From Oscillospiraceae bacterium (GTDB lineage Bacteria; Bacillota; Clostridia; Oscillospirales; Oscillospiraceae), in NCBI GenBank assembly GCA_902799075.1, contig CADBYZ010000004.1, positions 1,294 to 65,293 of the forward strand: 64,000 nt of DNA. Reading direction: 5' to 3'. Below the pieces are notes generated by a model. That model did no database searches and had not been told where the DNA came from. It worked only from the letters and a program-made list of their open reading frames with translations. Below are positions 1 to 7,367 of the stretch, one piece after another; position 1 is the first letter of the stretch; every line of letters starts with the position of its first letter. Position numbers and translations under genes: made by a program.

Positions 1-455
1 ATGCGAGATTGTTCCCGGACACCGCGGGCGTGAGCTGCTATGAGCTGGTGCTTGCCGAGCCCGTCAAGGGCTTTGCCCGCACCGCCGCCGAGGAGAAGTT
101 CCCCATCAAGATGGCCGAGCTCCAGGACAACACCTACCGCTTTGAGCCCGGCAGGCTCTTCAAGCTCCTGCGCGCGGGCATGAAGCGCTCCATGCATCTC
201 GGCACGGCGGTCTACCCATACTGGGAAAACGCCGCCCGCGCAGCCGAGGACCGCGCCGCGGTCTGGCTTGCCGCGGCCCTCGTCACCGGCGCGCTCCCGG
301 CGGCGCTGCTGCTGTACTGGGTGATCCGCTCCCTGGTCCACGGCAAGAAAAAACTGGAGAGCGACGTGCTGCCCGAGGCGAAGACAAGGACGCGCGAGTT
401 CTTCCGCGAGCGTTCAAGAAGACGCTGGGAAAAGAAGCACCCCGGAGAATACTGA
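1..455 (+). CDS. hypothetical protein, C-terminal part (5' end outside window)
   Basis: The frame of track ORF 9..455 stays open to the window edge. One hydrophobic helix (AAVWLAAALVTGALPAALLLYWVI) is followed by a Lys/Arg-rich tail. No family recognised. Confidence 0.35.
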   Translation, partial: ARLFPDTAGVSCYELVLAEPVKGFARTAAEEKFPIKMAELQDNTYRFEPGRLFKLLRAGMKRSMHLGTAVYPYWENAARAAEDRAAVWLAAALVTGALPAALLLYWVIRSLVHGKKKLESDVLPEAKTRTREFFRERSRRRWEKKHPGEY

Positions 456-463
456 GCACTACA

Positions 464-506
464 AAGGCACCCCGTGCGAAATGCACGGGGTGCCTTGCTT
501 GTTTTT
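464..506. terminator. bidirectional intrinsic terminator between ORF 1..455 and pepT
   Basis: Perfect 14-bp stem AAGGCACCCCGTGC / GCACGGGGTGCCTT with a 5-nt loop, followed by GCTTGTTTTT. It sits between convergent genes. Confidence 0.8.
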
Positions 507-534
507 GTACACTCCCTTGCAAGACGCGCAGCGC

Positions 535-1755
535 TCACTCTTCCCTTTCACACACGATGTTCAGCAGGATCTCCACGACCTTGTCCATGTCCTCCACGGC
601 GATGTGCTCGCTCGGTCCGTGGAAGGCGGCGCCGCCGGTGCCGAGGTTCGGGCACGGCAGACCGCTGAACGACAGGCGCGCCCCGTCCGTGCCGCCGCGG
701 ATCGGGCTCGTCGCGGGTTTGAGCCCCGCCTTGCGGATGGCCCGCTCGGCCCGGCGGACGATCTGCATGTGGTCGGCCAGGATCTCCGCCATGTTGCGGT
801 ACTGCTCGTTGAGCGTGAGGGTGACGGTGCCCTCGCCGTACTCGGCGTTGAGCGCGCCCTCGATCTCGCGCAGGCGGTCGCAGCGGGCGAGAAAGCGCTT
901 TGCGTCATGGTCGCGCACGATGTACTTGAGCTCCGCCTCGCTCACGTCGCCGCGCATGTCCGTCAGATGATAAAAGCCCTCGTAGCCCTCGGTGCGGGCG
1001 GGGATCTCATCGGCGGGGAGCATGGCGTTGATGCGCATGGCGACAAGGCTCGCGTTGACCATCACGTCCTTGGCGGAGCCGGGGTGCACGCTCACGCCCT
1101 TGATAAGAAAGCCTGCCGAGGCGGCGTTGAAGGTCTCGTAGTTGATCTCCTCCGGGGCGTCCCCGTCCACCGTGTAGGCAAAGGCCGCGCCGAAGCGCTT
1201 GAAGTCCATCAGCCGCGCCCCGTGGCCGATCTCCTCGTCCGGGGTAAAGCACACCGCCAGCGCGCAGTGGGGCCGGTCAGAATGGATGAGCGTTTCGCAC
1301 ACGGTCATGATCTCGGCAACGCCCGCCTTGTCGTCCGCGCCCAGGAGCGTGGTGCCGTCGGTGGTGATGATGGTCTTGCCCACGCAGTTTTTGAGCTCGG
1401 GGAAGTCCCGCGGACTGAGCACCAGCCCGGACGTGCCGAGGGCGATGTCTCCCCCGTCATAGTCAAAGTGCGTCTGCGGCTTCACGCCGGTGCCGGAGAA
1501 GGCCGGGGCCGTGTCGATGTGTGCGATCAGGCCGATGACGGGCTCCGATTCCCAGCCGGGGCTTGCCGGCAGGAAGGCGTAGGTGTAGGCGTGGGGGTCG
1601 GTGTAGACCCGCTTCATCCCCAGGTCCTGCAGCTCACAGTGCAAAAGCCACGAAAAGGCGTACTGCTTTTCGGTGCTGGGGGTGACGGCGTCGTTGTCTC
1701 CGTTGCTCTGTGTGTCGATCGCCGCATAGCGCAATAAACGTTTGTATGCTCTCAT
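535..1755 (-). CDS. pepT: peptidase T (tripeptide aminopeptidase, M20B)
   Basis: Track ORF 535..1902 trimmed to the ATG at 1753-1755 (MRAYKRLLRYAAIDTQS). Motifs HIDTAP, LGADDKAGVAEIM and FTPDEEIGHG. Confidence 0.9.
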   Translation of the reverse strand: MRAYKRLLRYAAIDTQSNGDNDAVTPSTEKQYAFSWLLHCELQDLGMKRVYTDPHAYTYAFLPASPGWESEPVIGLIAHIDTAPAFSGTGVKPQTHFDYDGGDIALGTSGLVLSPRDFPELKNCVGKTIITTDGTTLLGADDKAGVAEIMTVCETLIHSDRPHCALAVCFTPDEEIGHGARLMDFKRFGAAFAYTVDGDAPEEINYETFNAASAGFLIKGVSVHPGSAKDVMVNASLVAMRINAMLPADEIPARTEGYEGFYHLTDMRGDVSEAELKYIVRDHDAKRFLARCDRLREIEGALNAEYGEGTVTLTLNEQYRNMAEILADHMQIVRRAERAIRKAGLKPATSPIRGGTDGARLSFSGLPCPNLGTGGAAFHGPSEHIAVEDMDKVVEILLNIVCEREE

Positions 1756-1780
1756 GTAAATAGCCTCGCAATTCTTCTTT

Positions 1781-1895
1781 GGCTCCCTCTCTGAGGGAGC
1801 TGTCGCGCAGCGGCTGAGGGAGTTGTGCGTCAGCTTACAAACCCCTTCCACCGCTGAAGCGGTCCCCCTCCCCCAATCGCCGCAAGCGGCTGGGG
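1781..1895. repeat. cluster of GC-rich hairpin modules in the ylmH-pepT spacer
   Basis: Hairpin GCTCCCTC-tctg-AGGGAGC, then CCTCCCCCA...TGGGGGAGG enclosing GCCGC-aa-GCGGC. Same style as the family C modules elsewhere in the window. Confidence 0.5.
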
Positions 1896-1905
1896 GAGGC
1901 AAGTT

Positions 1906-2649
1906 CTATCTGTACAGCTCCGCTGTCACAAACATTCTCCCTTTGCGGGAGCTGCCGCCGATCCCGGCGACTTTTCCCTTGCCGGTGCCGCGTAAGGTCA
2001 GCACGTCGCCCTCCTTCACAGGCGCGTCGGGTTTTAAGCACTCCGTGTAGTTGAGCTGGATAAGCCCCGCCGCGATCTGGCGCGTGACCTCCGTGCGCGA
2101 AAGGTGGAAAAGCCCCGCCGCCACCGCGTCCAGGCGCGGGCTCATGACCGTGAAGCGGCGCTCCTCCGTCTTCTTCCCGCGCACCGGGATCTCTGAAAGC
2201 GCGATTTCGACCGCCTTCACCCCGCAGCGGCCCACCTTGTCGATACTGAGCAAATGCCGCAGGACGCTCGGTTGACATAATACGATCGCCTCATGTCCCT
2301 CGACCAGGATATCGCCGACCCACTCGCGCCCGACCCCCATGCCGAGGATCGCGCCCATATAGTCCCGGTGCCCCGGTTCCCCGAAGGCGGCGGTGAGGCG
2401 GATAGCGCGGATGTGCTCGGAAACGTCCAGGGCGTCCGCCTCCATCCAGTCGGGCAGGAAAAAGGCGATACAGCGCTCGGCGTCCGGGTGGCCGCCGTGA
2501 AAGACCATGTTCGCCTCCCGGAGGGCTTGGTCGTGCTCGAGGGCGCAGCGCTCGGCGGGGGTGAGAAAGCCGGTATTCGTGGGCGTGCCCCGGCCCTCAC
2601 AGCGGCGCGCCAGGTCCTCGGCCCGTTTAAGAATCTCTTCTTTGTCCAT
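1906..2649 (-). CDS. ylmH: YlmH-like S4-domain RNA-binding protein
   Basis: 247 aa with the same motif order as B. subtilis YlmH: FLTPAE, GG..DAER, HRDYMGAILGMGVGREWVGDILV, and a C-terminal S4 region SPRLDAVAAGLFHLSRTEV..VKEGDVLTLRGTGKG. GAGG lies 9 nt upstream of the ATG. Confidence 0.8.
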   Translation of the reverse strand: MDKEEILKRAEDLARRCEGRGTPTNTGFLTPAERCALEHDQALREANMVFHGGHPDAERCIAFFLPDWMEADALDVSEHIRAIRLTAAFGEPGHRDYMGAILGMGVGREWVGDILVEGHEAIVLCQPSVLRHLLSIDKVGRCGVKAVEIALSEIPVRGKKTEERRFTVMSPRLDAVAAGLFHLSRTEVTRQIAAGLIQLNYTECLKPDAPVKEGDVLTLRGTGKGKVAGIGGSSRKGRMFVTAELYR

Positions 2650-5221
2650 CCTGCAGCCTCGTCTGATGTGCGTTGAAGTTTGTTTTTTTCAAGACCTCTT
2701 CGATCTGACTGAGTACCCATTCCACCTCGCCCCTGAATTCCCCGGACGAGCATCTGAGCACCCCGGAGCGCAAGGCCGACAGGCGGATGAGGTTGTCGCT
2801 GGTCACGACGCGCACCGCGTAGTTTTTGCCGATCTCGTCGACGATGCGCTCGATGTAGGCGTCGGCGGTCTCGCCGTCCTTCGTGAAGGCCACCGAGATG
2901 TTGTGGTACTCCGTGCGGGAACCGGGGTTGCCCGGCGTGCGGAAGCCGTCGAACACCAGCACGAGCCTTGCCCCCGTAAAGCCCGCGTAGCCCGAGAGGA
3001 TGTCCATGAGCCGCTCGCGGGCAAGGTCCAGACGGTCGCGCGCCAGGGCCTTGAGCTCGTCCCAGGCGAAGATGAGGTTGTAGCCGTCGACGATGATGTG
3101 CTCTTTCCTGGAAGATATCTGCGAGACCTCCGTCACGGCGGCGTTTACCTGCCGGGCGCGGTACTCGGGGCGGCGGATGGGGCCGAACTCCCGCTCCATG
3201 ATGGCCTCGAGCTCCCGGTCGTCGATGTTCAGGCTCCGGTAGCGCTGTATGGGCTTTGCGGGCGCTTCCTCCTGCTTCGGCTTCAAAACGCTTTCGAGGT
3301 GCATGTATTCCGGCACCTCACGCCAGTTCACGTTCATGCCCGCCCCGTGGGCGCAGAAGACGGAGTCGGCGGGGTTTTCCTCGTCCCGCTCGGGTTCATA
3401 CCCGATTTCTTCCACGATGCGCTTTTGCTCACTGCACGGGCGGTAGCCGCAGGGCGTGAGGCTCAGGCGGCCCCGGCCGTGGGACCAGGAGACCAGCTCC
3501 TCCATATAATGATTGAGCTTCACCGCCGGGGCCGCGCCCTCCAGGCGCAGGTACTCGCCCTGTTCCTCGGGGGACGAGAAGTCCCCGTTCATGGCGCGGA
3601 TGTCGGTGATGGCCCGGCCGATCTGCTCGGCGGGCACTTCCAGCACAAAGCTGTACCAGGGCTCGAGCAGCACGGACTCCGCCTGCATGAGACCCTGCCG
3701 CACGGCGCGGTAGGTGGCCTGGCGAAAGTCCCCGCCCTCGGTGTGCTTGAGGTGGGCGCGGCCCGCTGCCAGCGTGATGCGCATGTCGGTGACGGGTGAG
3801 CCGGTGAGCACGCCCCTGTGCTGCTTTTCGGCAAGGTGCGTCAAAATCAGGCGCTGCCAGTTGCGGTCCAGCACATCCTCCGGCACGATGCTGTCAAAGC
3901 TCAGGCCGCTGCCGGGCGGCAGGGGCTCAAGCAATAAGTGCACCTCGGCATAGTGGCGCAGGGGCTCGAAATGGCCCACGCCCTCCACGGTATTTTTGAT
4001 GGTTTCCCTGTATAAAATACGTCCGGTGTCAAGCTCGATCTCGGTATCGAAGCGGTCGCGGACGATGCTTTTGAAGATCTCCGCCTGGATCTTGCCCATG
4101 AGCTGGACGCTGATCTCCTTGGACTGCGCGTTCCAGACCACGTGCAGCTGCGGGTCCTCCTGGTCAAGCTGCATGAGCTTGGGCAGCAGGAGCATGGGAT
4201 CCGTGCCCTTGGGAAGCAGCACCCGGTAGCTCATGACCGGCTCCAATACCGGGCCCTCCGCGTCGGCGGCGGCGCCCAGGCCCTGGCCGGGTCTTGCGGC
4301 GCTTAAGCCCAGGGCCGCGCAGACCCAGCCCGCCCGTACCTCCTCGGCGGTGTCGAACTTCTGGCCCGAGTAGACGCGAAGCCCGCTGATCTTTTCCTCG
4401 ATGGGGTTGCCCTCGGCGTCGTTATATTTTGATAATGTGCGCACCCTGAGGCTCCCGCCCGTGACCTTGAGCCAGGTCAGGCGGTTTCCCTGGGCGTCGC
4501 GGGAAATCTTATAGACCCGCGCGGCAAAGTCCGGCCCGTAGGCGGGACAGGGGGCGTATTTTTCCAGGGCGTCCAAAAACTCGCCCACGCCCTCGGTCTT
4601 GAGGCCCGAGCCGAAGAAGCACGGGAAGAGCCGCCGGGAGGCAATCAGGCCGCGCAGAGTTTCGTCCCCGATGCTGCCGCCCTCCAGGTATTCCTCCATG
4701 GCCCCCTCGTCGCACATGGCGACAGCGTCGTCACGCTCGGGGCCGCCGAAATCGACGCAGCGCTCGGAAAGGCGCGAGCTCAGCTCGTGCATCAGGGCAT
4801 CGCGGCCGGGGCCGGGCAGGTCCATCTTGGTGATGAATAAGAAGGTCGGAACATGATAGCGCTCCAAAAGCTTCCATAGCGTCTCCGTGTGGGCCTGTAC
4901 GCCGTCGGTGCCGGAGATGACCAGCACCGCGCAGTCGAGTACGCGAAGCGTGCGCTCGGCCTCGGCGGAGAAGTCCACGTGGCCCGGGGTGTCCAGCAGG
5001 GTCAGGCTCCCCTCCCCCAGCGGCAGGACGGCCTGCTTGGAGAAGATGGTGATGCCCCGCTGCCGCTCCAGGGCATGGGTATCGAGGAAGCTGTCGCGGT
5101 GATCGACCCTTCCCAGCTTTTTCAGTTTTCCCGTGAGGTACAGCATGGCCTCGCACAGCGTGGTCTTGCCCGCGTCCACATGCGCCAGGATGCCCAGCAC
5201 CACATTCTTTTCGTTTCCCAT
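2627..5221 (-). CDS. EF-G/TetM-family translational GTPase fused to a C-terminal YacP/Rae1-type NYN ribonuclease domain
   Basis: A single 864-aa ORF. GTPase motifs are G1 AHVDAGKTT, G2 RGITI, G3 DTPGH and G4 TKMD, with domain V-like LLEPWYSF. Residues 706-864 (nt 2630-3106) read IIVDGYNLIFAW / LVLVFDG / VAFTKDGETADAYIE / VVTSDN, as in YacP/Rae1. Confidence 0.85.
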   Translation of the reverse strand: MGNEKNVVLGILAHVDAGKTTLCEAMLYLTGKLKKLGRVDHRDSFLDTHALERQRGITIFSKQAVLPLGEGSLTLLDTPGHVDFSAEAERTLRVLDCAVLVISGTDGVQAHTETLWKLLERYHVPTFLFITKMDLPGPGRDALMHELSSRLSERCVDFGGPERDDAVAMCDEGAMEEYLEGGSIGDETLRGLIASRRLFPCFFGSGLKTEGVGEFLDALEKYAPCPAYGPDFAARVYKISRDAQGNRLTWLKVTGGSLRVRTLSKYNDAEGNPIEEKISGLRVYSGQKFDTAEEVRAGWVCAALGLSAARPGQGLGAAADAEGPVLEPVMSYRVLLPKGTDPMLLLPKLMQLDQEDPQLHVVWNAQSKEISVQLMGKIQAEIFKSIVRDRFDTEIELDTGRILYRETIKNTVEGVGHFEPLRHYAEVHLLLEPLPPGSGLSFDSIVPEDVLDRNWQRLILTHLAEKQHRGVLTGSPVTDMRITLAAGRAHLKHTEGGDFRQATYRAVRQGLMQAESVLLEPWYSFVLEVPAEQIGRAITDIRAMNGDFSSPEEQGEYLRLEGAAPAVKLNHYMEELVSWSHGRGRLSLTPCGYRPCSEQKRIVEEIGYEPERDEENPADSVFCAHGAGMNVNWREVPEYMHLESVLKPKQEEAPAKPIQRYRSLNIDDRELEAIMEREFGPIRRPEYRARQVNAAVTEVSQISSRKEHIIVDGYNLIFAWDELKALARDRLDLARERLMDILSGYAGFTGARLVLVFDGFRTPGNPGSRTEYHNISVAFTKDGETADAYIERIVDEIGKNYAVRVVTSDNLIRLSALRSGVLRCSSGEFRGEVEWVLSQIEEVLKKTNFNAHQTRLQDGQRRDS

Positions 5222-5436
5222 GTGCGTATTTTACCAGCTTTTTCCGAAAGAATCAATGTAAAATATGGCGGAGTTAATGGCGTTATGTAACCTTTTGCAC
5301 ATTGCATGCAAAAAGAAATACAATTTTCTGAAACTTTGTCTATTATTTTTGTCAGAGTCATGTTATAATTAGAGAGTATATTGCAATCTCATTGACTTTG
5401 AATTATCTACTATATAAAATAAGGGGTACACACGAG

Positions 5437-6126
5437 ATGAAGAAAATACTGGTTTTGGAGGACGAGTCCAATATTCGCAGCTTTGTGGTCATCAATCTGC
5501 GCCGCAGCGGCTTTGAGCCCATCGAAGCCGGCACCGGCGAGGAGGCGCTGGAGAAGTGGAAGGTCAATCCCGACATCTGCCTTGCGCTGCTGGACGTGAT
5601 GCTGCCGGACATCGACGGCTTTGAGGTCTGCCGCCGCATCCGCGCCTCGGGCTCGAAGATGGGCATCATCATGCTCACCGCGAAGAACCAGGAGATCGAC
5701 AAGGTCACCGGCCTCATGACCGGGGCCGACGACTATGTCACCAAGCCCTTCTCCCCCGCCGAGCTCACCGCCCGCGTCGACGCGCTCATCCGCCGTCTGG
5801 GCGTGGACGACGCGGAGAAATCCTCCACCGAGATCGTGAGCGGGCCCTTCCTGCTCAACACCCGCAACCGCACCCTTGAAAAGGACGGGCAGCGCCTCAA
5901 GCTCACGCAGATCGAATACATGCTCATCAAGCTCTTTATGGAAAATCCCGGCAAGGCCATGAGCCGCGAGGATATCCTCTCCGCCGTCTGGGGCAGCGAC
6001 TTCACGGGCGAGCTCAAGACCGTGGACGTGAATATCCGGAGACTTCGCATCAAGATCGAAAACGACCCCACCGAGCCGGAGTATTTGACGACCGTGTGGG
6101 GCTACGGGTATAAGTGGGGGTACTGA
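5437..6126 (+). CDS. OmpR-family response regulator
   Basis: Track ORF trimmed to the ATG at 5437 (MKKILVLEDE), with AAGGGG 10 nt upstream. Receiver motif LLDVMLPDIDGFEV and winged-helix end YLTTVWGYGYKW. Confidence 0.9.
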   Translation: MKKILVLEDESNIRSFVVINLRRSGFEPIEAGTGEEALEKWKVNPDICLALLDVMLPDIDGFEVCRRIRASGSKMGIIMLTAKNQEIDKVTGLMTGADDYVTKPFSPAELTARVDALIRRLGVDDAEKSSTEIVSGPFLLNTRNRTLEKDGQRLKLTQIEYMLIKLFMENPGKAMSREDILSAVWGSDFTGELKTVDVNIRRLRIKIENDPTEPEYLTTVWGYGYKWGY

Positions 6127-6131
6127 GAAAG

Positions 6132-6333
6132 CGTGGAGTTTTGAGTGTGGAGTGTGGAGTTAAGGAGCGGCTCCGCCGCGATAAAAAAAGGCTCCGCCAA
6201 CAGTAACGCGAAGCGTACGCTTTCAAGGCATGGAAAAGAATTCAATCCGTCCCCCGAAAGGGAACACCATAACTTCACTCTCCACTCTTTAAACTCCAAA
6301 CTCCAAACTCCAAACTCCAAACTTCAAACTCAA
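6132..6333 (+). repeat. family A heptamer-armed hairpin element, copy A1 (between RR and HK genes)
   Basis: Left arm GTGGAGTTTTGAGTGTGGAGTGTGGAGTT (6133-6161). Right arm AACTCCAAACTCCAAACTCCAAACTCCAAACTTCAAACTC (6292-6331). The heptamer units are complementary at 6 of 7 positions, and the interior is about 130 nt. Confidence 0.8.
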
Positions 6334-6350
6334 ATTAGGAAGTACGATTC

Positions 6351-7367
6351 ATGTTTGGCAACTTACGAACACAGCTGCTGCTGTCGAGCATCGCGGCGCT
6401 GGCCCTGCTGCTGATGGGCACCTGGGCCTCCACGCACGGGCTCATGAACTGGGCCACCGCCATCTATATCGCCCTGTGCGTGTATGTGCTGGCGGTCAAT
6501 GTCTGGTTCCGGTTCTGCGTGGCGGGGCCGCTCGAGAAGCTGCGGGAATTTGCAAAGCGCATCGCCACCGGCAGCTTTGGGCTCAAGACCGAGGACTTTG
6601 AGCCTGACGAGATCGGTTACCTCGCCGAGGAGATCAACGGCATCTCCGAGAAAACGGCGCTGGCCGAGAAGACCAGGACGGAGTTTATCTCCCAGGTCTC
6701 CCACGAGCTGCGCACCCCCCTGACCGCCATCACCGGCTGGGCCGAGACCATCGCCTACGACCCCGCGGTGCAGGGCGACTCCCTCAGGGGCATCCAGATC
6801 ATCTCCAAGGAGGCCGAGAGGCTGACCAACATGGTCAAGGAGCTGCTGGAATTTACCCGCATCCAGGACGGGCGCTTCAATCTGCAGATCGAGCTCATCG
6901 ACATTGCCGCCGAGCTCGAGGACGCGCTGTTTACTTACGGGGAGCTCATGAAGCAGGGCGGCATGAAGGTCAACTACCGCGGCCCGAAATCCGAGATCCC
7001 GCTCATCCCCGGCGACTCCGAGAGGTTAAAGCAGGTGTTTCTGAACCTGCTCGACAACGCCATGAAGCACGGCGGCGAGGGCGGGCGCATCGACGTAGAC
7101 CTCAAGCAGATTGACGGCGCGGTGCGCATCCGCGTGCGCGACTACGGCCACGGCATCCCCGAGGCGGAGCTTCCCCACGTCAAGGAGAAGTTTTACAAGG
7201 GCAGCTCCAAGAACCGCGGCACCGGCATCGGTTTGGCTGTCTGCGACGAGATCGTCACCCGCCACGGCGGCACCCTGGACATCGCCAACGCCCCCGGCAA
7301 GGAGGGCGGCTGTCAGGTCACGGTGACCCTTCCCATCGGGGCGAAACTCAACGCAGGCGGGAAGTAA
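6351..7367 (+). CDS. sensor histidine kinase (two N-terminal TM helices, HisKA + HATPase_c)
   Basis: H-box VSHELRTPLTAITGW, N-box LLDNAMKHG, G-box GTGIGLAVC. Lies directly downstream of the response regulator. Confidence 0.9.
   Translation: MFGNLRTQLLLSSIAALALLLMGTWASTHGLMNWATAIYIALCVYVLAVNVWFRFCVAGPLEKLREFAKRIATGSFGLKTEDFEPDEIGYLAEEINGISEKTALAEKTRTEFISQVSHELRTPLTAITGWAETIAYDPAVQGDSLRGIQIISKEAERLTNMVKELLEFTRIQDGRFNLQIELIDIAAELEDALFTYGELMKQGGMKVNYRGPKSEIPLIPGDSERLKQVFLNLLDNAMKHGGEGGRIDVDLKQIDGAVRIRVRDYGHGIPEAELPHVKEKFYKGSSKNRGTGIGLAVCDEIVTRHGGTLDIANAPGKEGGCQVTVTLPIGAKLNAGGK

What the first reader, a model, noticed from the sequence alone, without database searches (positions are those of the whole stretch)
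1906..5221. The GTPase-NYN gene overlaps ylmH: candidate ribosome rescue / quality-control module
The ylmH ATG (2647-2649) lies 23 nt inside the 3' end of the fusion gene on the same strand. GAGG sits 9 nt upstream and I see no terminator between them, which fits co-transcription and translational coupling. YlmH is an S4-domain protein that has been implicated in ribosome-associated quality control in B. subtilis as an RqcP-like factor. There it sits in the dcw/divIVA region. Here it is detached from any division genes and placed behind a putative A-site nuclease. My inference is a two-step module: stalled-ribosome recognition and mRNA cleavage, then handling of the 50S-bound peptidyl-tRNA.
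Basis: inference. Interest (0 to 1): 0.7.

Follow-up and report, generated by a model that had tools for sequence, protein, structure and literature searches.

The report
GTPase-nuclease gene paired with ylmH
A gut Clostridia gene that fuses an EF-G-like ribosome GTPase to a Rae1-type RNA-cutting domain overlaps the gene for the ribosome quality-control factor YlmH, and this pairing recurs in three gene orders in two distant lineages, which suggests an untested ribosome-rescue module.

Summary
On the minus strand, an 864-aa gene (2627-5221) encodes an EF-G/Tet-like GTPase joined to a Rae1/YacP NYN nuclease. It overlaps a 247-aa ylmH-family gene (1906-2649) by 23 nt. A GAGG lies 7 nt before the ylmH ATG, and no terminator-like site lies between the genes.

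The fusion architecture is already published (2015, 2017) but has not been characterised. It is a large family, and its GTPase motifs and nuclease Asp residues are conserved.

The link to ylmH appears to be new. Of 80 species-level fusion loci, 15 have ylmH directly downstream. These form one clade, the genes overlap by 8-23 nt in most of them, and the flanking genes differ. A second, distant clade has ylmH divergent from the fusion (5 loci) or upstream of it in tandem (2 loci). About 80% of fusion loci have no ylmH nearby.

The protein is not a Tet(M)-type resistance factor: it scores below the family cut-off and lacks the loop-III motif.

The best reading is that both proteins act on stalled ribosomes. 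The GTPase would deliver the nuclease for RNA cleavage, and YlmH would then handle the 50S-peptidyl-tRNA product. This rests on gene neighbourhood only. The 'A-site nuclease' detail conflicts with recent Rae1 work. Interest is moderate to high.

The parts
5228..5256 (-). Promoter-like site TTGATT-17 nt (with TG)-TAAAAT. It ends 6 nt before the fusion ATG, and no SD is visible, so the mRNA is probably leaderless.
   Evidence: Consensus scan and sequence. The same layout is found in relatives L001 and L004-L007. The transcription start is inferred and has not been mapped.
2627..5221 (-). Fusion gene, 864 aa: EF-G/Tet-like translational GTPase, Cys/His linker and Rae1/YacP-type NYN nuclease.
   Evidence: ORF, Pfam, NCBIfam, PDB sequence matches to EF-G, TetO, TetM and YacP.
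4550..5206 (-). G domain (residues 6-224). Motifs: G1 AHVDAGKT (13-20), G3 DTPGH (77-81), G4 TKMD (131-134).
   Evidence: Pfam GTP_EFTU, E=2.3e-47. The motifs are conserved in 138 family representatives; G4 is NKxD in 126 of them and T or S in 12.
3422..4243 (-). EF-G domains III, IV and V (residues 327-600). The domain IV tip G-R-A-H-L-K-H (487-493) is EF-G-like.
   Evidence: Pfam EFG_III, EFG_IV and EFG_C. Alignment to EF-G GSYH and to TetM YYSP. Conservation.
3098..3421 (-). Linker (residues 601-708). Together with C596 it carries a conserved Cys/His set (C596, C623, H625, H641), a possible metal site.
   Evidence: Alignments A1 and A2. Counts in 138 representatives: 122, 121, 102 and 127. 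Metal binding is inferred only.
2663..3097 (-). NYN_YacP nuclease domain (residues 709-853) with acidic residues D712, D758, D787 and D809.
   Evidence: Pfam, E=3.1e-40. B. subtilis YacP (PDB 5MQ8/5MQ9), E=4.8e-20, with D7 and D81 aligned to D712 and D787. D7N D81N is the published catalytic mutant (PMC10351889). These positions are Asp in at least 135 of 138 representatives.
2657..2660 (-). SD-like GAGG inside the 3' end of the fusion gene, 7 nt before the ylmH ATG.
   Evidence: Sequence. Similar purine-rich motifs are found at the same place in orthologous junctions.
2627..2649 (-). 23-nt overlap between the fusion stop and the ylmH start.
   Evidence: Overlaps of 8-23 nt are found in 12 of 16 clade-A loci.
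1906..2649 (-). ylmH-family gene, 247 aa: N-terminal domain, YlmH_RBD (81-152) and S4 (172-217). R172 is equivalent to B. subtilis R182.
   Evidence: Pfam. B. subtilis YlmH (PDB 8S1P chain V), E=1.4e-23 over residues 25-244. R172 is invariant in 25 homologues. The R182A variant is inactive in B. subtilis (PMC11317155).
1756..1905 (-). Structured spacer between ylmH and pepT with GC-rich hairpins and no U tract. It may mark the end of the operon.
   Evidence: RNA fold -74.4 kcal/mol, z=-3.6 against shuffles. Not called as a terminator. pepT is a neighbour only in the closest relatives.

Best explanation
This is a two-gene operon whose products most likely act one after the other on stalled ribosomes.

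Gene 1 encodes an EF-G-type translational GTPase. Its C-terminus carries a Cys/His linker and an intact Rae1-type NYN endoribonuclease. The inferred action is as follows. In the GTP form, the GTPase body docks at the ribosomal factor site with domain IV reaching into the A site, as EF-G and Tet(M) do. This brings the tethered nuclease to the ribosome-bound mRNA, which it cuts. GTP hydrolysis then releases the factor. The cut makes the ribosomes behind it substrates for tmRNA, or leads to subunit splitting.

Gene 2 encodes YlmH, and its translation is probably coupled to gene 1. By analogy with B. subtilis, YlmH would bind the resulting 50S subunit that still holds peptidyl-tRNA and support RqcH-driven alanine tailing.

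What is shown: the gene anatomy, the domain content, the conserved catalytic residues, and the recurrent genomic linkage.

What is inferred: co-transcription, ribosome binding, the RNA target, and the hand-over to YlmH.
For: Anatomy: the genes overlap by 23 nt, there is an SD-like GAGG, no terminator lies between them, and there is one promoter-like site upstream.

Active-looking enzymes: G1, G3 and G4 and the catalytic His of DTPGH are conserved. The four NYN Asp residues, including the equivalents of Rae1 D7 and D81, are conserved in at least 135 of 138 representatives clustered at 50% identity (PMC10351889).

YlmH is full length relative to the ribosome-bound B. subtilis protein and keeps the essential Arg (PMC11317155).

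Linkage:
- ylmH lies immediately downstream in 15 of 80 species-level fusion loci, plus L001 and the window.
- These loci form one clade and have at least six different flanking contexts.
- In a distant clade, ylmH is divergent from the fusion (L063, L082, L083, L091, L094) or upstream of it with a 4-8 nt overlap (L084, L092).
- The YlmH proteins of the two clades are only about 30% identical. That is no closer than either is to unlinked YlmH.
- No other gene is a conserved neighbour of the fusion.

Published roles: Rae1 cleaves mRNA at stalled or collided ribosomes and feeds tmRNA (PMC12407103, PMC13622287). YlmH binds 50S-peptidyl-tRNA and can replace RqcP (PMC11317155).
Against: Linkage is absent in about 80% of the sampled fusion loci, including Flavonifractor, Intestinimonas, Oscillibacter, Faecalibacterium and the Lachnospiraceae. 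It is also absent for the more distant YlmH homologues.

No rqcH, mutS2, smpB or ssrA lies in the 64-kb window. Whether the genome has them is unknown.

Rae1 cuts upstream of the stalled ribosome rather than in the A site (PMC12407103). The geometry of a nuclease tethered to the factor site is therefore unclear, and the target could be rRNA or tRNA.

In B. subtilis, most YlmH-bound particles were late 50S assembly-like particles without tRNA (PMC11317155).

There is no expression, binding or genetic data for any member of the family. The structure model was too poor to use.
Confidence: 0.5

Rival explanations
1. Late ribosome-biogenesis checkpoint. The GTPase-nuclease would test-drive or trim rRNA on nearly mature 50S or 70S particles, and YlmH would act as a late 50S assembly factor. 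The pair would work in ribosome maturation, not in rescue of stalled translation.
For: 66% of the YlmH-bound particles pulled down from B. subtilis were 50S without P-site tRNA, with an immature H68/H69 arrangement (PMC11317155, read). In Bacilli and many Clostridia, yacP lies in an operon with mrnC and yacO, and it was first proposed to act in rRNA/tRNA processing (PMC5499597). In L094 a SpoU/RlmB-type methyltransferase gene lies two genes from the ylmH-fusion pair. The linkage data fit this reading as well as they fit rescue.
Against: Experimental work on Rae1 shows translation-dependent mRNA cleavage, not rRNA maturation (PMC10351889, PMC12407103, PMC13622287). The genetic phenotype of YlmH is synthetic sickness with loss of tmRNA, together with rescue of RQC (PMC11317155). 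No rRNA-processing or assembly genes are conserved next to the fusion.
Confidence: 0.2
2. The neighbours are not partners. The fusion would be a Rae1-like regulator of specific mRNAs, or a general stress factor. ylmH would sit beside it through inherited synteny and shared expression needs, with no mechanistic hand-over.
For: Most fusion genes have no ylmH nearby, and their neighbours are variable. ylmH wanders between unrelated contexts in Clostridia. The linked loci fall in just two clades, so there may be as few as two independent events. Known Rae1 targets in B. subtilis are specific short ORFs with regulatory outcomes (PMC10351889).
Against: The pair survives repeated turnover of both flanks in clade A. 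It is found in three gene orders in lineages whose YlmH proteins are only about 30% identical. The genes overlap in both tandem orders. Direct adjacency of two given genes is expected about once in a thousand random placements; that figure is my estimate, not a computed value.
Confidence: 0.12
3. Tetracycline ribosomal protection protein, as the public annotation says, with the nuclease as an accessory to resistance.
For: NCBI names close homologues as TetM/TetW/TetO/TetS family proteins. Overall similarity to TetO and TetM is collinear over residues 7-596. Atkinson raised an RNase-assisted resistance idea in 2015 (PMC4342817).
Against: The NCBIfam tet_protect score is 382.6 bits against a cut-off of 775, and all Tet-specific models are far below threshold. 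The TetM loop-III YYSP motif is replaced by RAHLKH, which aligns with the EF-G GSYH motif. The gene is chromosomal, lies among housekeeping genes, and is broadly inherited across Oscillospirales and Lachnospiraceae. It has no mobile-element context in the window.
Confidence: 0.03

Closest known systems
Rae1/YacP of Bacillus subtilis (ribosome-associated endoribonuclease 1)
   Same: The NYN_YacP fold family is shared. The C-terminal 140 residues align with E=4.8e-20, and the catalytic D7 and D81 equivalents are present. Action is expected to be ribosome-dependent.
   Different: Rae1 is a free-standing protein of about 170 aa. Here the domain is tethered through a 110-aa Cys/His linker to a 600-aa EF-G-like GTPase. 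Recruitment would therefore be GTPase-driven and at the factor site. Rae1 cuts 12 nt upstream of the stalled codon (PMC12407103); the cut site here is unknown.
Tet(M)/Tet(O) ribosomal protection proteins and EF-G (EF2 family of translational GTPases)
   Same: The five-domain body and intact G motifs are shared. The body is collinear with TetO/TetM and lacks the long G' insert of EF-G.
   Different: The protein scores below every Tet family cut-off. The domain IV tip is EF-G-like rather than the Tet loop-III motif. It has a C-terminal nuclease. Its role in translocation or drug release is untested.
YlmH / RqcP with RqcH and MutS2 (bacterial ribosome-associated quality control, B. subtilis)
   Same: The second gene is a full-length YlmH with the essential Arg. 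The proposed logic is the same: sense a stalled ribosome, generate a 50S-peptidyl-tRNA particle, and let an S4-domain factor hold the tRNA.
   Different: In B. subtilis the sensor and splitter is the ATPase MutS2, which does not cut mRNA, and ylmH lies in the ylm operon near dcw (PMC11317155, PMC13622287). Here ylmH is coupled to a GTPase-nuclease. The presence of rqcH, rqcP and mutS2 in this genome is unknown.
SmrB (E. coli) and Cue2/NONU-1 with Hbs1-Dom34 (eukaryotic no-go decay)
   Same: The concept is the same: an endonuclease cuts mRNA on stalled or collided ribosomes, and a translational GTPase probes the A site during rescue.
   Different: These use unrelated nuclease folds (SMR), and the nuclease and GTPase are separate proteins. 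Here the two activities are in one polypeptide. This is an analogy drawn from general knowledge and is not homology.
Published descriptions of the TetM-NYN_YacP fusion (Atkinson 2015, PMC4342817; Matelska et al. 2017, PMC5499597)
   Same: It is the same domain architecture in Clostridia.
   Different: Those papers noted the architecture only. One counted ten clostridial species, and the other reported some co-expression with HTH genes. Neither mentions ylmH, and the YlmH paper has no mention of NYN or Rae1.

Membership tests
Translational GTPase, EF2/EF-G family | G1 (AHxDxGKT), G3 (DxPGH) and G4 (NKxD) motifs | tested here: met
   AHVDAGKT at 13-20, DTPGH at 77-81, TKMD at 131-134. G4 Asn is replaced by Thr in this subclade; it is Asn in 126 of 138 representatives.
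Translational GTPase, EF2/EF-G family | Domains III, IV and V following the G domain and domain II | tested here: met
   Pfam EFG_III, EFG_IV and EFG_C are all above their cut-offs. EF-G_D2 is recorded on close homologues.
Translational GTPase, EF2/EF-G family | Ribosome-stimulated GTP hydrolysis | not testable with these tools
   Needs biochemistry.
Tetracycline ribosomal protection proteins (Tet(M)/Tet(O) type) | Score above the curated NCBIfam family cut-off | tested here: not met
   tet_protect scores 382.6 bits against 775. tet_protect_M_W scores 235 against 1100.
Tetracycline ribosomal protection proteins (Tet(M)/Tet(O) type) | Domain IV loop-III motif (YYSP in TetM) that displaces the drug. 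The role of the motif is from the literature as I recall it. | tested here: not met
   TetM KYGLYYSPVS aligns with AAGRAHLKHT in the fusion. The TetM sequence was verified against PDB 3J9Y.
Tetracycline ribosomal protection proteins (Tet(M)/Tet(O) type) | Confers tetracycline resistance | not testable with these tools
   Needs an MIC assay.
Rae1/YacP NYN endoribonucleases | NYN_YacP domain above the Pfam cut-off | tested here: met
   138.3 bits against 24.6, residues 709-853. PDB 5MQ8/5MQ9 YacP, E=4.8e-20.
Rae1/YacP NYN endoribonucleases | Catalytic aspartates (Rae1 D7 and D81) | tested here: met
   D712 and D787 align with D7 and D81. The D7N D81N mutant is inactive (PMC10351889). The positions are conserved in at least 135 of 138 representatives.
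Rae1/YacP NYN endoribonucleases | Translation-dependent mRNA cleavage | not testable with these tools
   Needs in vivo or in vitro cleavage assays.
YlmH family (S4-domain RQC factor) | YlmH_RBD central domain plus C-terminal S4 domain | tested here: met
   YlmH_RBD scores 34.2 bits against 23. S4 scores 22.9 against 22.8, which is borderline. The YlmH N-terminal family PF21278 is recorded on close homologues.
YlmH family (S4-domain RQC factor) | Full-length similarity to the ribosome-bound B. subtilis YlmH | tested here: met
   PDB 8S1P chain V, E=1.4e-23, residues 25-244 of 247.
YlmH family (S4-domain RQC factor) | Functionally essential Arg of the S4 domain (B. subtilis R182) | tested here: met
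   R172 lies in SPRLDAV and is invariant in 25 homologues. R182A is inactive (PMC11317155).
YlmH family (S4-domain RQC factor) | Cyanobacterial Sll1252 equivalog (TIGR03069) | tested here: not met
   105.7 bits against a cut-off of 201.55. The protein is a family relative and not that equivalog.
YlmH family (S4-domain RQC factor) | Binds 50S-peptidyl-tRNA and supports Ala-tailing | not testable with these tools
   Needs pull-down, cryo-EM or reporter assays.
Bacterial RQC pathway (RqcH-dependent) | rqcH present in the same genome | not testable with these tools
   It is not in the 64-kb window. The whole genome was not available.
Known anti-phage defence systems | Match to a PADLOC model | tested here: not met
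   No hits for either protein.

The most novel reading that the evidence does not exclude
In some Oscillospirales, the fusion protein is an all-in-one bacterial no-go-decay factor. A single polypeptide would sense a stalled ribosome through an EF-G-like GTPase (the Hbs1/Dom34-like step) and cut the RNA with its own tethered nuclease (the Cue2/SmrB/Rae1-like step). It would then work obligatorily with YlmH, which would take the 50S-peptidyl-tRNA product into alanine tailing. This would be a GTPase-driven route into RQC that runs parallel to, or replaces, the MutS2 route.
Probability: 0.3. Interest if true: 0.8.

Novelty: new variant of a known kind. Interest (0 to 1): 0.62.

Why it matters
How bacteria other than E. 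coli and B. subtilis detect stalled or collided ribosomes and resolve them is still being worked out. Two routes are known so far: an ATPase splitter (MutS2) feeding RqcH with RqcP or YlmH, and free nucleases (SmrB, Rae1) feeding tmRNA.

A translational GTPase that carries its own Rae1-type nuclease and is genomically tied to YlmH would connect these two routes. It would also give an uncharacterised family, abundant in gut Clostridia, a testable function.

There is a practical consequence too. Public annotation calls these genes tetracycline-resistance proteins, and the evidence here argues against that. Resistome surveys of gut metagenomes may therefore be over-counting resistance genes.

Tried and rejected
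- Structure: the AlphaFold2 model of the fusion, built on the only alignment the tool would accept (47 sequences at 74% identity or more), had mean pLDDT 56.7, with domain IV, the linker and the NYN domain below 50. I did not use it, and I ran no fold search.
- RNA elements: an Rfam scan of 1-6500 gave only two sub-threshold chance hits. No riboswitch or leader was found.
- Defence system: there were no PADLOC hits.
- Other conserved partners of the fusion: I clustered all ORFs within 3.5 kb of 80 fusion genes. Apart from ylmH, only neighbours specific to the closest relatives (histidine kinase, pepT) and small clusters of at most 8 loci emerged. Downstream ORFs in the sister lineages looked unrelated to each other on inspection of their sequences, and some looked spurious. 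I did not scan them against Pfam.
- Tet resistance reading: rejected on cut-offs and the loop motif.
- Plasmid or mobile origin: only two 'plasmid' records carry a full-length fusion. The record inspected (Monoglobus, 518 kb) is large and non-mobilizable; the other (Agathobacter, 252 kb) was not inspected.
- Single copy: I could not test whether ylmH is the only copy in the genome, or whether a free-standing rae1, rqcH, rqcP or mutS2 co-occurs, because only loci were reachable and not whole genomes.
- Literature: searches for YacP/NYN with GTPase/TetM, and for YlmH with ribosome, found no functional study of the fusion and no report of the ylmH link.


Full report
**1. What is in the sequence**

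Two minus-strand genes fill 1906-5221.

- The upstream gene runs 5221->2627 and encodes 864 aa. It starts MGNEKNVVLGILAHVDAGKTT and ends at the TAA at 2629-2627.
- The downstream gene runs 2649->1906 and encodes 247 aa. Its ATG is at 2649-2647, so the two overlap by 23 nt in different reading frames.
- GAGG lies at 2660-2657, 7 nt before the ATG.
- A consensus scan finds no terminator-like site on the minus strand between the genes.
- The scan finds one promoter-like site upstream: TTGATT, 17 nt, TAAAAT at 5256-5228. It ends 6 nt before the fusion ATG, and no SD is visible, which suggests a leaderless mRNA. This layout recurs in relatives L001 and L004-L007.
- Downstream of ylmH there is a 150-nt GC-rich structured spacer (z=-3.6), followed by pepT.
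- Upstream and divergent lies a response-regulator/histidine-kinase pair.
- The rest of the window is ordinary chromosome. It includes prmC, recA, recX and cysS (by synteny with the 97%-identical relative L001) and proS, hprK, murB, whiA, dnaE and cell-envelope genes. No division genes and no other ribosome-rescue genes were seen.

**2. What the two proteins are**

The fusion protein:
- Pfam finds GTP_EFTU, EFG_III, EFG_IV and EFG_C, then NYN_YacP at residues 709-853.
- Against solved structures, the body matches EF-G and is collinear with TetO/TetM over residues 7-596.
- The C-terminal domain matches B. subtilis YacP/Rae1 with E=4.8e-20. Rae1 D7 and D81 align with D712 and D787. D7N D81N is the published catalytic mutant (PMC10351889).

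The second protein:
- It has YlmH_RBD and S4 domains.
- It aligns over residues 25-244 with B. subtilis YlmH from the 50S-bound cryo-EM structure 8S1P, E=1.4e-23.
- Its R172 corresponds to B. subtilis R182, whose Ala variant is inactive (PMC11317155). The residue is invariant in 25 homologues.

**3. The fusion family**

An exhaustive profile search returned full-length GTPase-plus-NYN proteins for nearly all of the best 150 cluster representatives at 50% identity.

In 138 full-length representatives the following are conserved:
- the G1, G3 and G4 motifs;
- the domain IV tip G-(R/K)-A-H-x-K-H;
- four NYN aspartates;
- a Cys/His set in the linker (C596, C623, H625, H641).

Both enzymatic halves therefore look functional.

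The architecture itself is not new. Atkinson (2015) noted Tet-like proteins with a YacP NYN domain in ten clostridial species (PMC4342817). Matelska et al. (2017) noted the TetM-NYN_YacP fusion and left its role open (PMC5499597). I found no functional study.

**4. It is not a Tet(M)-type resistance protein**

- The NCBIfam tet_protect model scores 382.6 bits against a cut-off of 775, and the specific Tet models are much further below threshold.
- The TetM loop-III segment KYGLYYSPVS aligns with AAGRAHLKHT in the fusion. I checked the TetM sequence against PDB 3J9Y first.
- The same segment aligns with the EF-G GSYH motif, with the His kept.
- The public name 'TetM/TetW/TetO/TetS family' given to close homologues is therefore probably an over-annotation.

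**5. Testing the neighbourhood: the fusion side**

I scanned one genome per species (GTDB set) with an alignment of the linker-plus-NYN region. This gave 80 loci, all of them fusions. They come from Oscillospiraceae, Ruminococcaceae, Faecalibacterium, Monoglobus and Lachnospiraceae such as Blautia and Dorea.

A YlmH profile finds a ylmH gene within 6 kb in 16 of the 80 loci.

- In 15 loci (L002-L014, L020, L026), as in L001 and the window, ylmH lies immediately downstream on the same strand.
- The genes overlap by 8-23 nt in 12 of those 16 loci (the 15 plus L001). In the other four they are separated by 5-119 nt.
- These loci form essentially one clade in a distance tree of the fusions (L012 falls just outside it). 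Fusion identity to the window ranges from 56% to 96%, and YlmH identity from 47% to 95%.
- Within the clade the flanking genes differ in at least six ways. The pair has therefore stayed together while both sides turned over.
- No other gene is a conserved neighbour of the fusion across the 80 loci. The downstream ORFs in the sister lineages looked unrelated to each other on inspection.

**6. Testing the neighbourhood: the ylmH side**

The sixteenth locus, L063, has ylmH divergent from the fusion, 82 nt away. I searched for homologues of that YlmH and looked up the contigs of 12 of them. The results:

| Arrangement | Loci | YlmH identity to L063 |
|---|---|---|
| Divergent pairs | L082, L094, L083, L091 | 70%, 62%, 58%, 58% |
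| Tandem, ylmH first, overlap 8 and 4 nt | L084, L092 | 51%, 50% |
| Unlinked | L085-L088 | 41-47% |
| Unlinked (L093, where only 560 nt of sequence is available on one side) | L093 | 52% |

The flanks differ in every case. None of the unlinked loci sits next to division genes.

In trees, this second linked group is far from the first, for both proteins. Its YlmH is about 30% identical to the window's, which is no closer than the unlinked ones are.

The association therefore exists in three gene orders in two distant lineages. Either it arose more than once, or it is old and has survived inversions and many losses. Both histories argue for selection on proximity, which is the usual signature of a functional link.

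The limits are equally clear. About 80% of the sampled fusion-bearing species lack the link. The sample was also biased towards relatives of the window, because only the best 80 of at least 577 matches were kept.

**7. Mechanism**

Shown: the anatomy, the domain content, the conserved catalytic residues and the linkage.

Inferred:
- The two genes are co-transcribed and translationally coupled.
- The GTPase body binds the ribosomal factor site with domain IV in the A site, as EF-G and Tet(M) do.
- The nuclease, which hangs from the C-terminus on a 110-residue Cys/His linker, cuts ribosome-bound RNA.
- YlmH then binds the 50S subunit still carrying peptidyl-tRNA, as it does in B. subtilis (PMC11317155).

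This fits what is known of the free-standing relatives. Rae1 cleaves mRNA at stalled or collided ribosomes and creates tmRNA substrates (PMC12407103; PMC13622287). YlmH can replace RqcP in RqcH-driven alanine tailing and is synthetically sick with loss of tmRNA.

Newer data place Rae1 cuts 12 nt upstream of the stalled codon, so the actual target and geometry here are open.

**8. Rival explanations**

- A late 50S-maturation role is the strongest rival. Most YlmH-bound particles in B. subtilis looked like late assembly intermediates, and yacP classically sits with the rRNA-processing genes mrnC and yacO.
- Neighbours without partnership is weakened by the three gene orders and the flank turnover.
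- Tetracycline protection is rejected on the membership tests.
- Defence-system models and RNA-family scans gave nothing.
- The structure model was too poor to use.

**9. Verdict**

The fusion is a known architecture. Its tie to ylmH appears to be unreported in the literature I could search.

I rate it a new variant of a known kind (ribosome rescue and quality control), with interest 0.62.

Noticed in passing
window 5228-5256 (minus strand), just upstream of the fusion ATG at 5221: A promoter-like TTGATT-17-TAAAAT with an extended -10 TG ends 6 nt before the start codon, and no SD is visible. The operon mRNA may therefore be leaderless. The same layout is found in relatives L001 and L004-L007. 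More distant members (L002, L003, L009-L014) have a leader, and several of those show an SD-like motif.
   Followed up: partly
window 3298-3436 (fusion residues 596-641): A Cys/His set (C596, C623, H625, H641) in the linker after domain V is conserved in 102-127 of 138 family representatives. It may be a metal-binding module. The AlphaFold model was too weak to judge.
   Followed up: partly
L089 (Ligilactobacillus salivarius pMP118, NC_007930.1 226540-228474): An unfused homologue (644 aa, 49% identical over fusion residues 5-643) keeps the Cys/His extension but has no NYN domain. It sits next to rpsN and a 'putative metal homeostasis protein'. The GTPase subfamily therefore also exists without the nuclease, and it is also annotated as a Tet protein.
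   Followed up: partly
window 1756-1905 (minus strand), between ylmH and pepT: This spacer is strongly structured: nested GC-rich hairpins, -74.4 kcal/mol, z=-3.6 against shuffles. It has no U tract, was not called as a terminator, and has no Rfam match. It could be an atypical terminator or a repeat-type element.
   Followed up: partly
window 2627-5221 and homologues P0017, P0052, P0066: Public records name these proteins 'TetM/TetW/TetO/TetS family tetracycline resistance ribosomal protection protein', although they score at about half the curated family cut-off and lack the TetM loop-III motif. Gut resistome surveys may be counting them as resistance genes.
   Followed up: yes
L094 7203-7988 (minus strand): A SpoU/RlmB-type rRNA methyltransferase gene lies two genes from a divergent ylmH-fusion pair. 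This recalls the yacO-yacP adjacency of B. subtilis. It is a single instance.
   Followed up: no
window 131-134 of the fusion protein (nt 4820-4831): The G4 motif is TKMD rather than NKxD in the window and its close relatives. It is Asn in 126 of 138 family representatives, and Thr or Ser in 12.
   Followed up: partly
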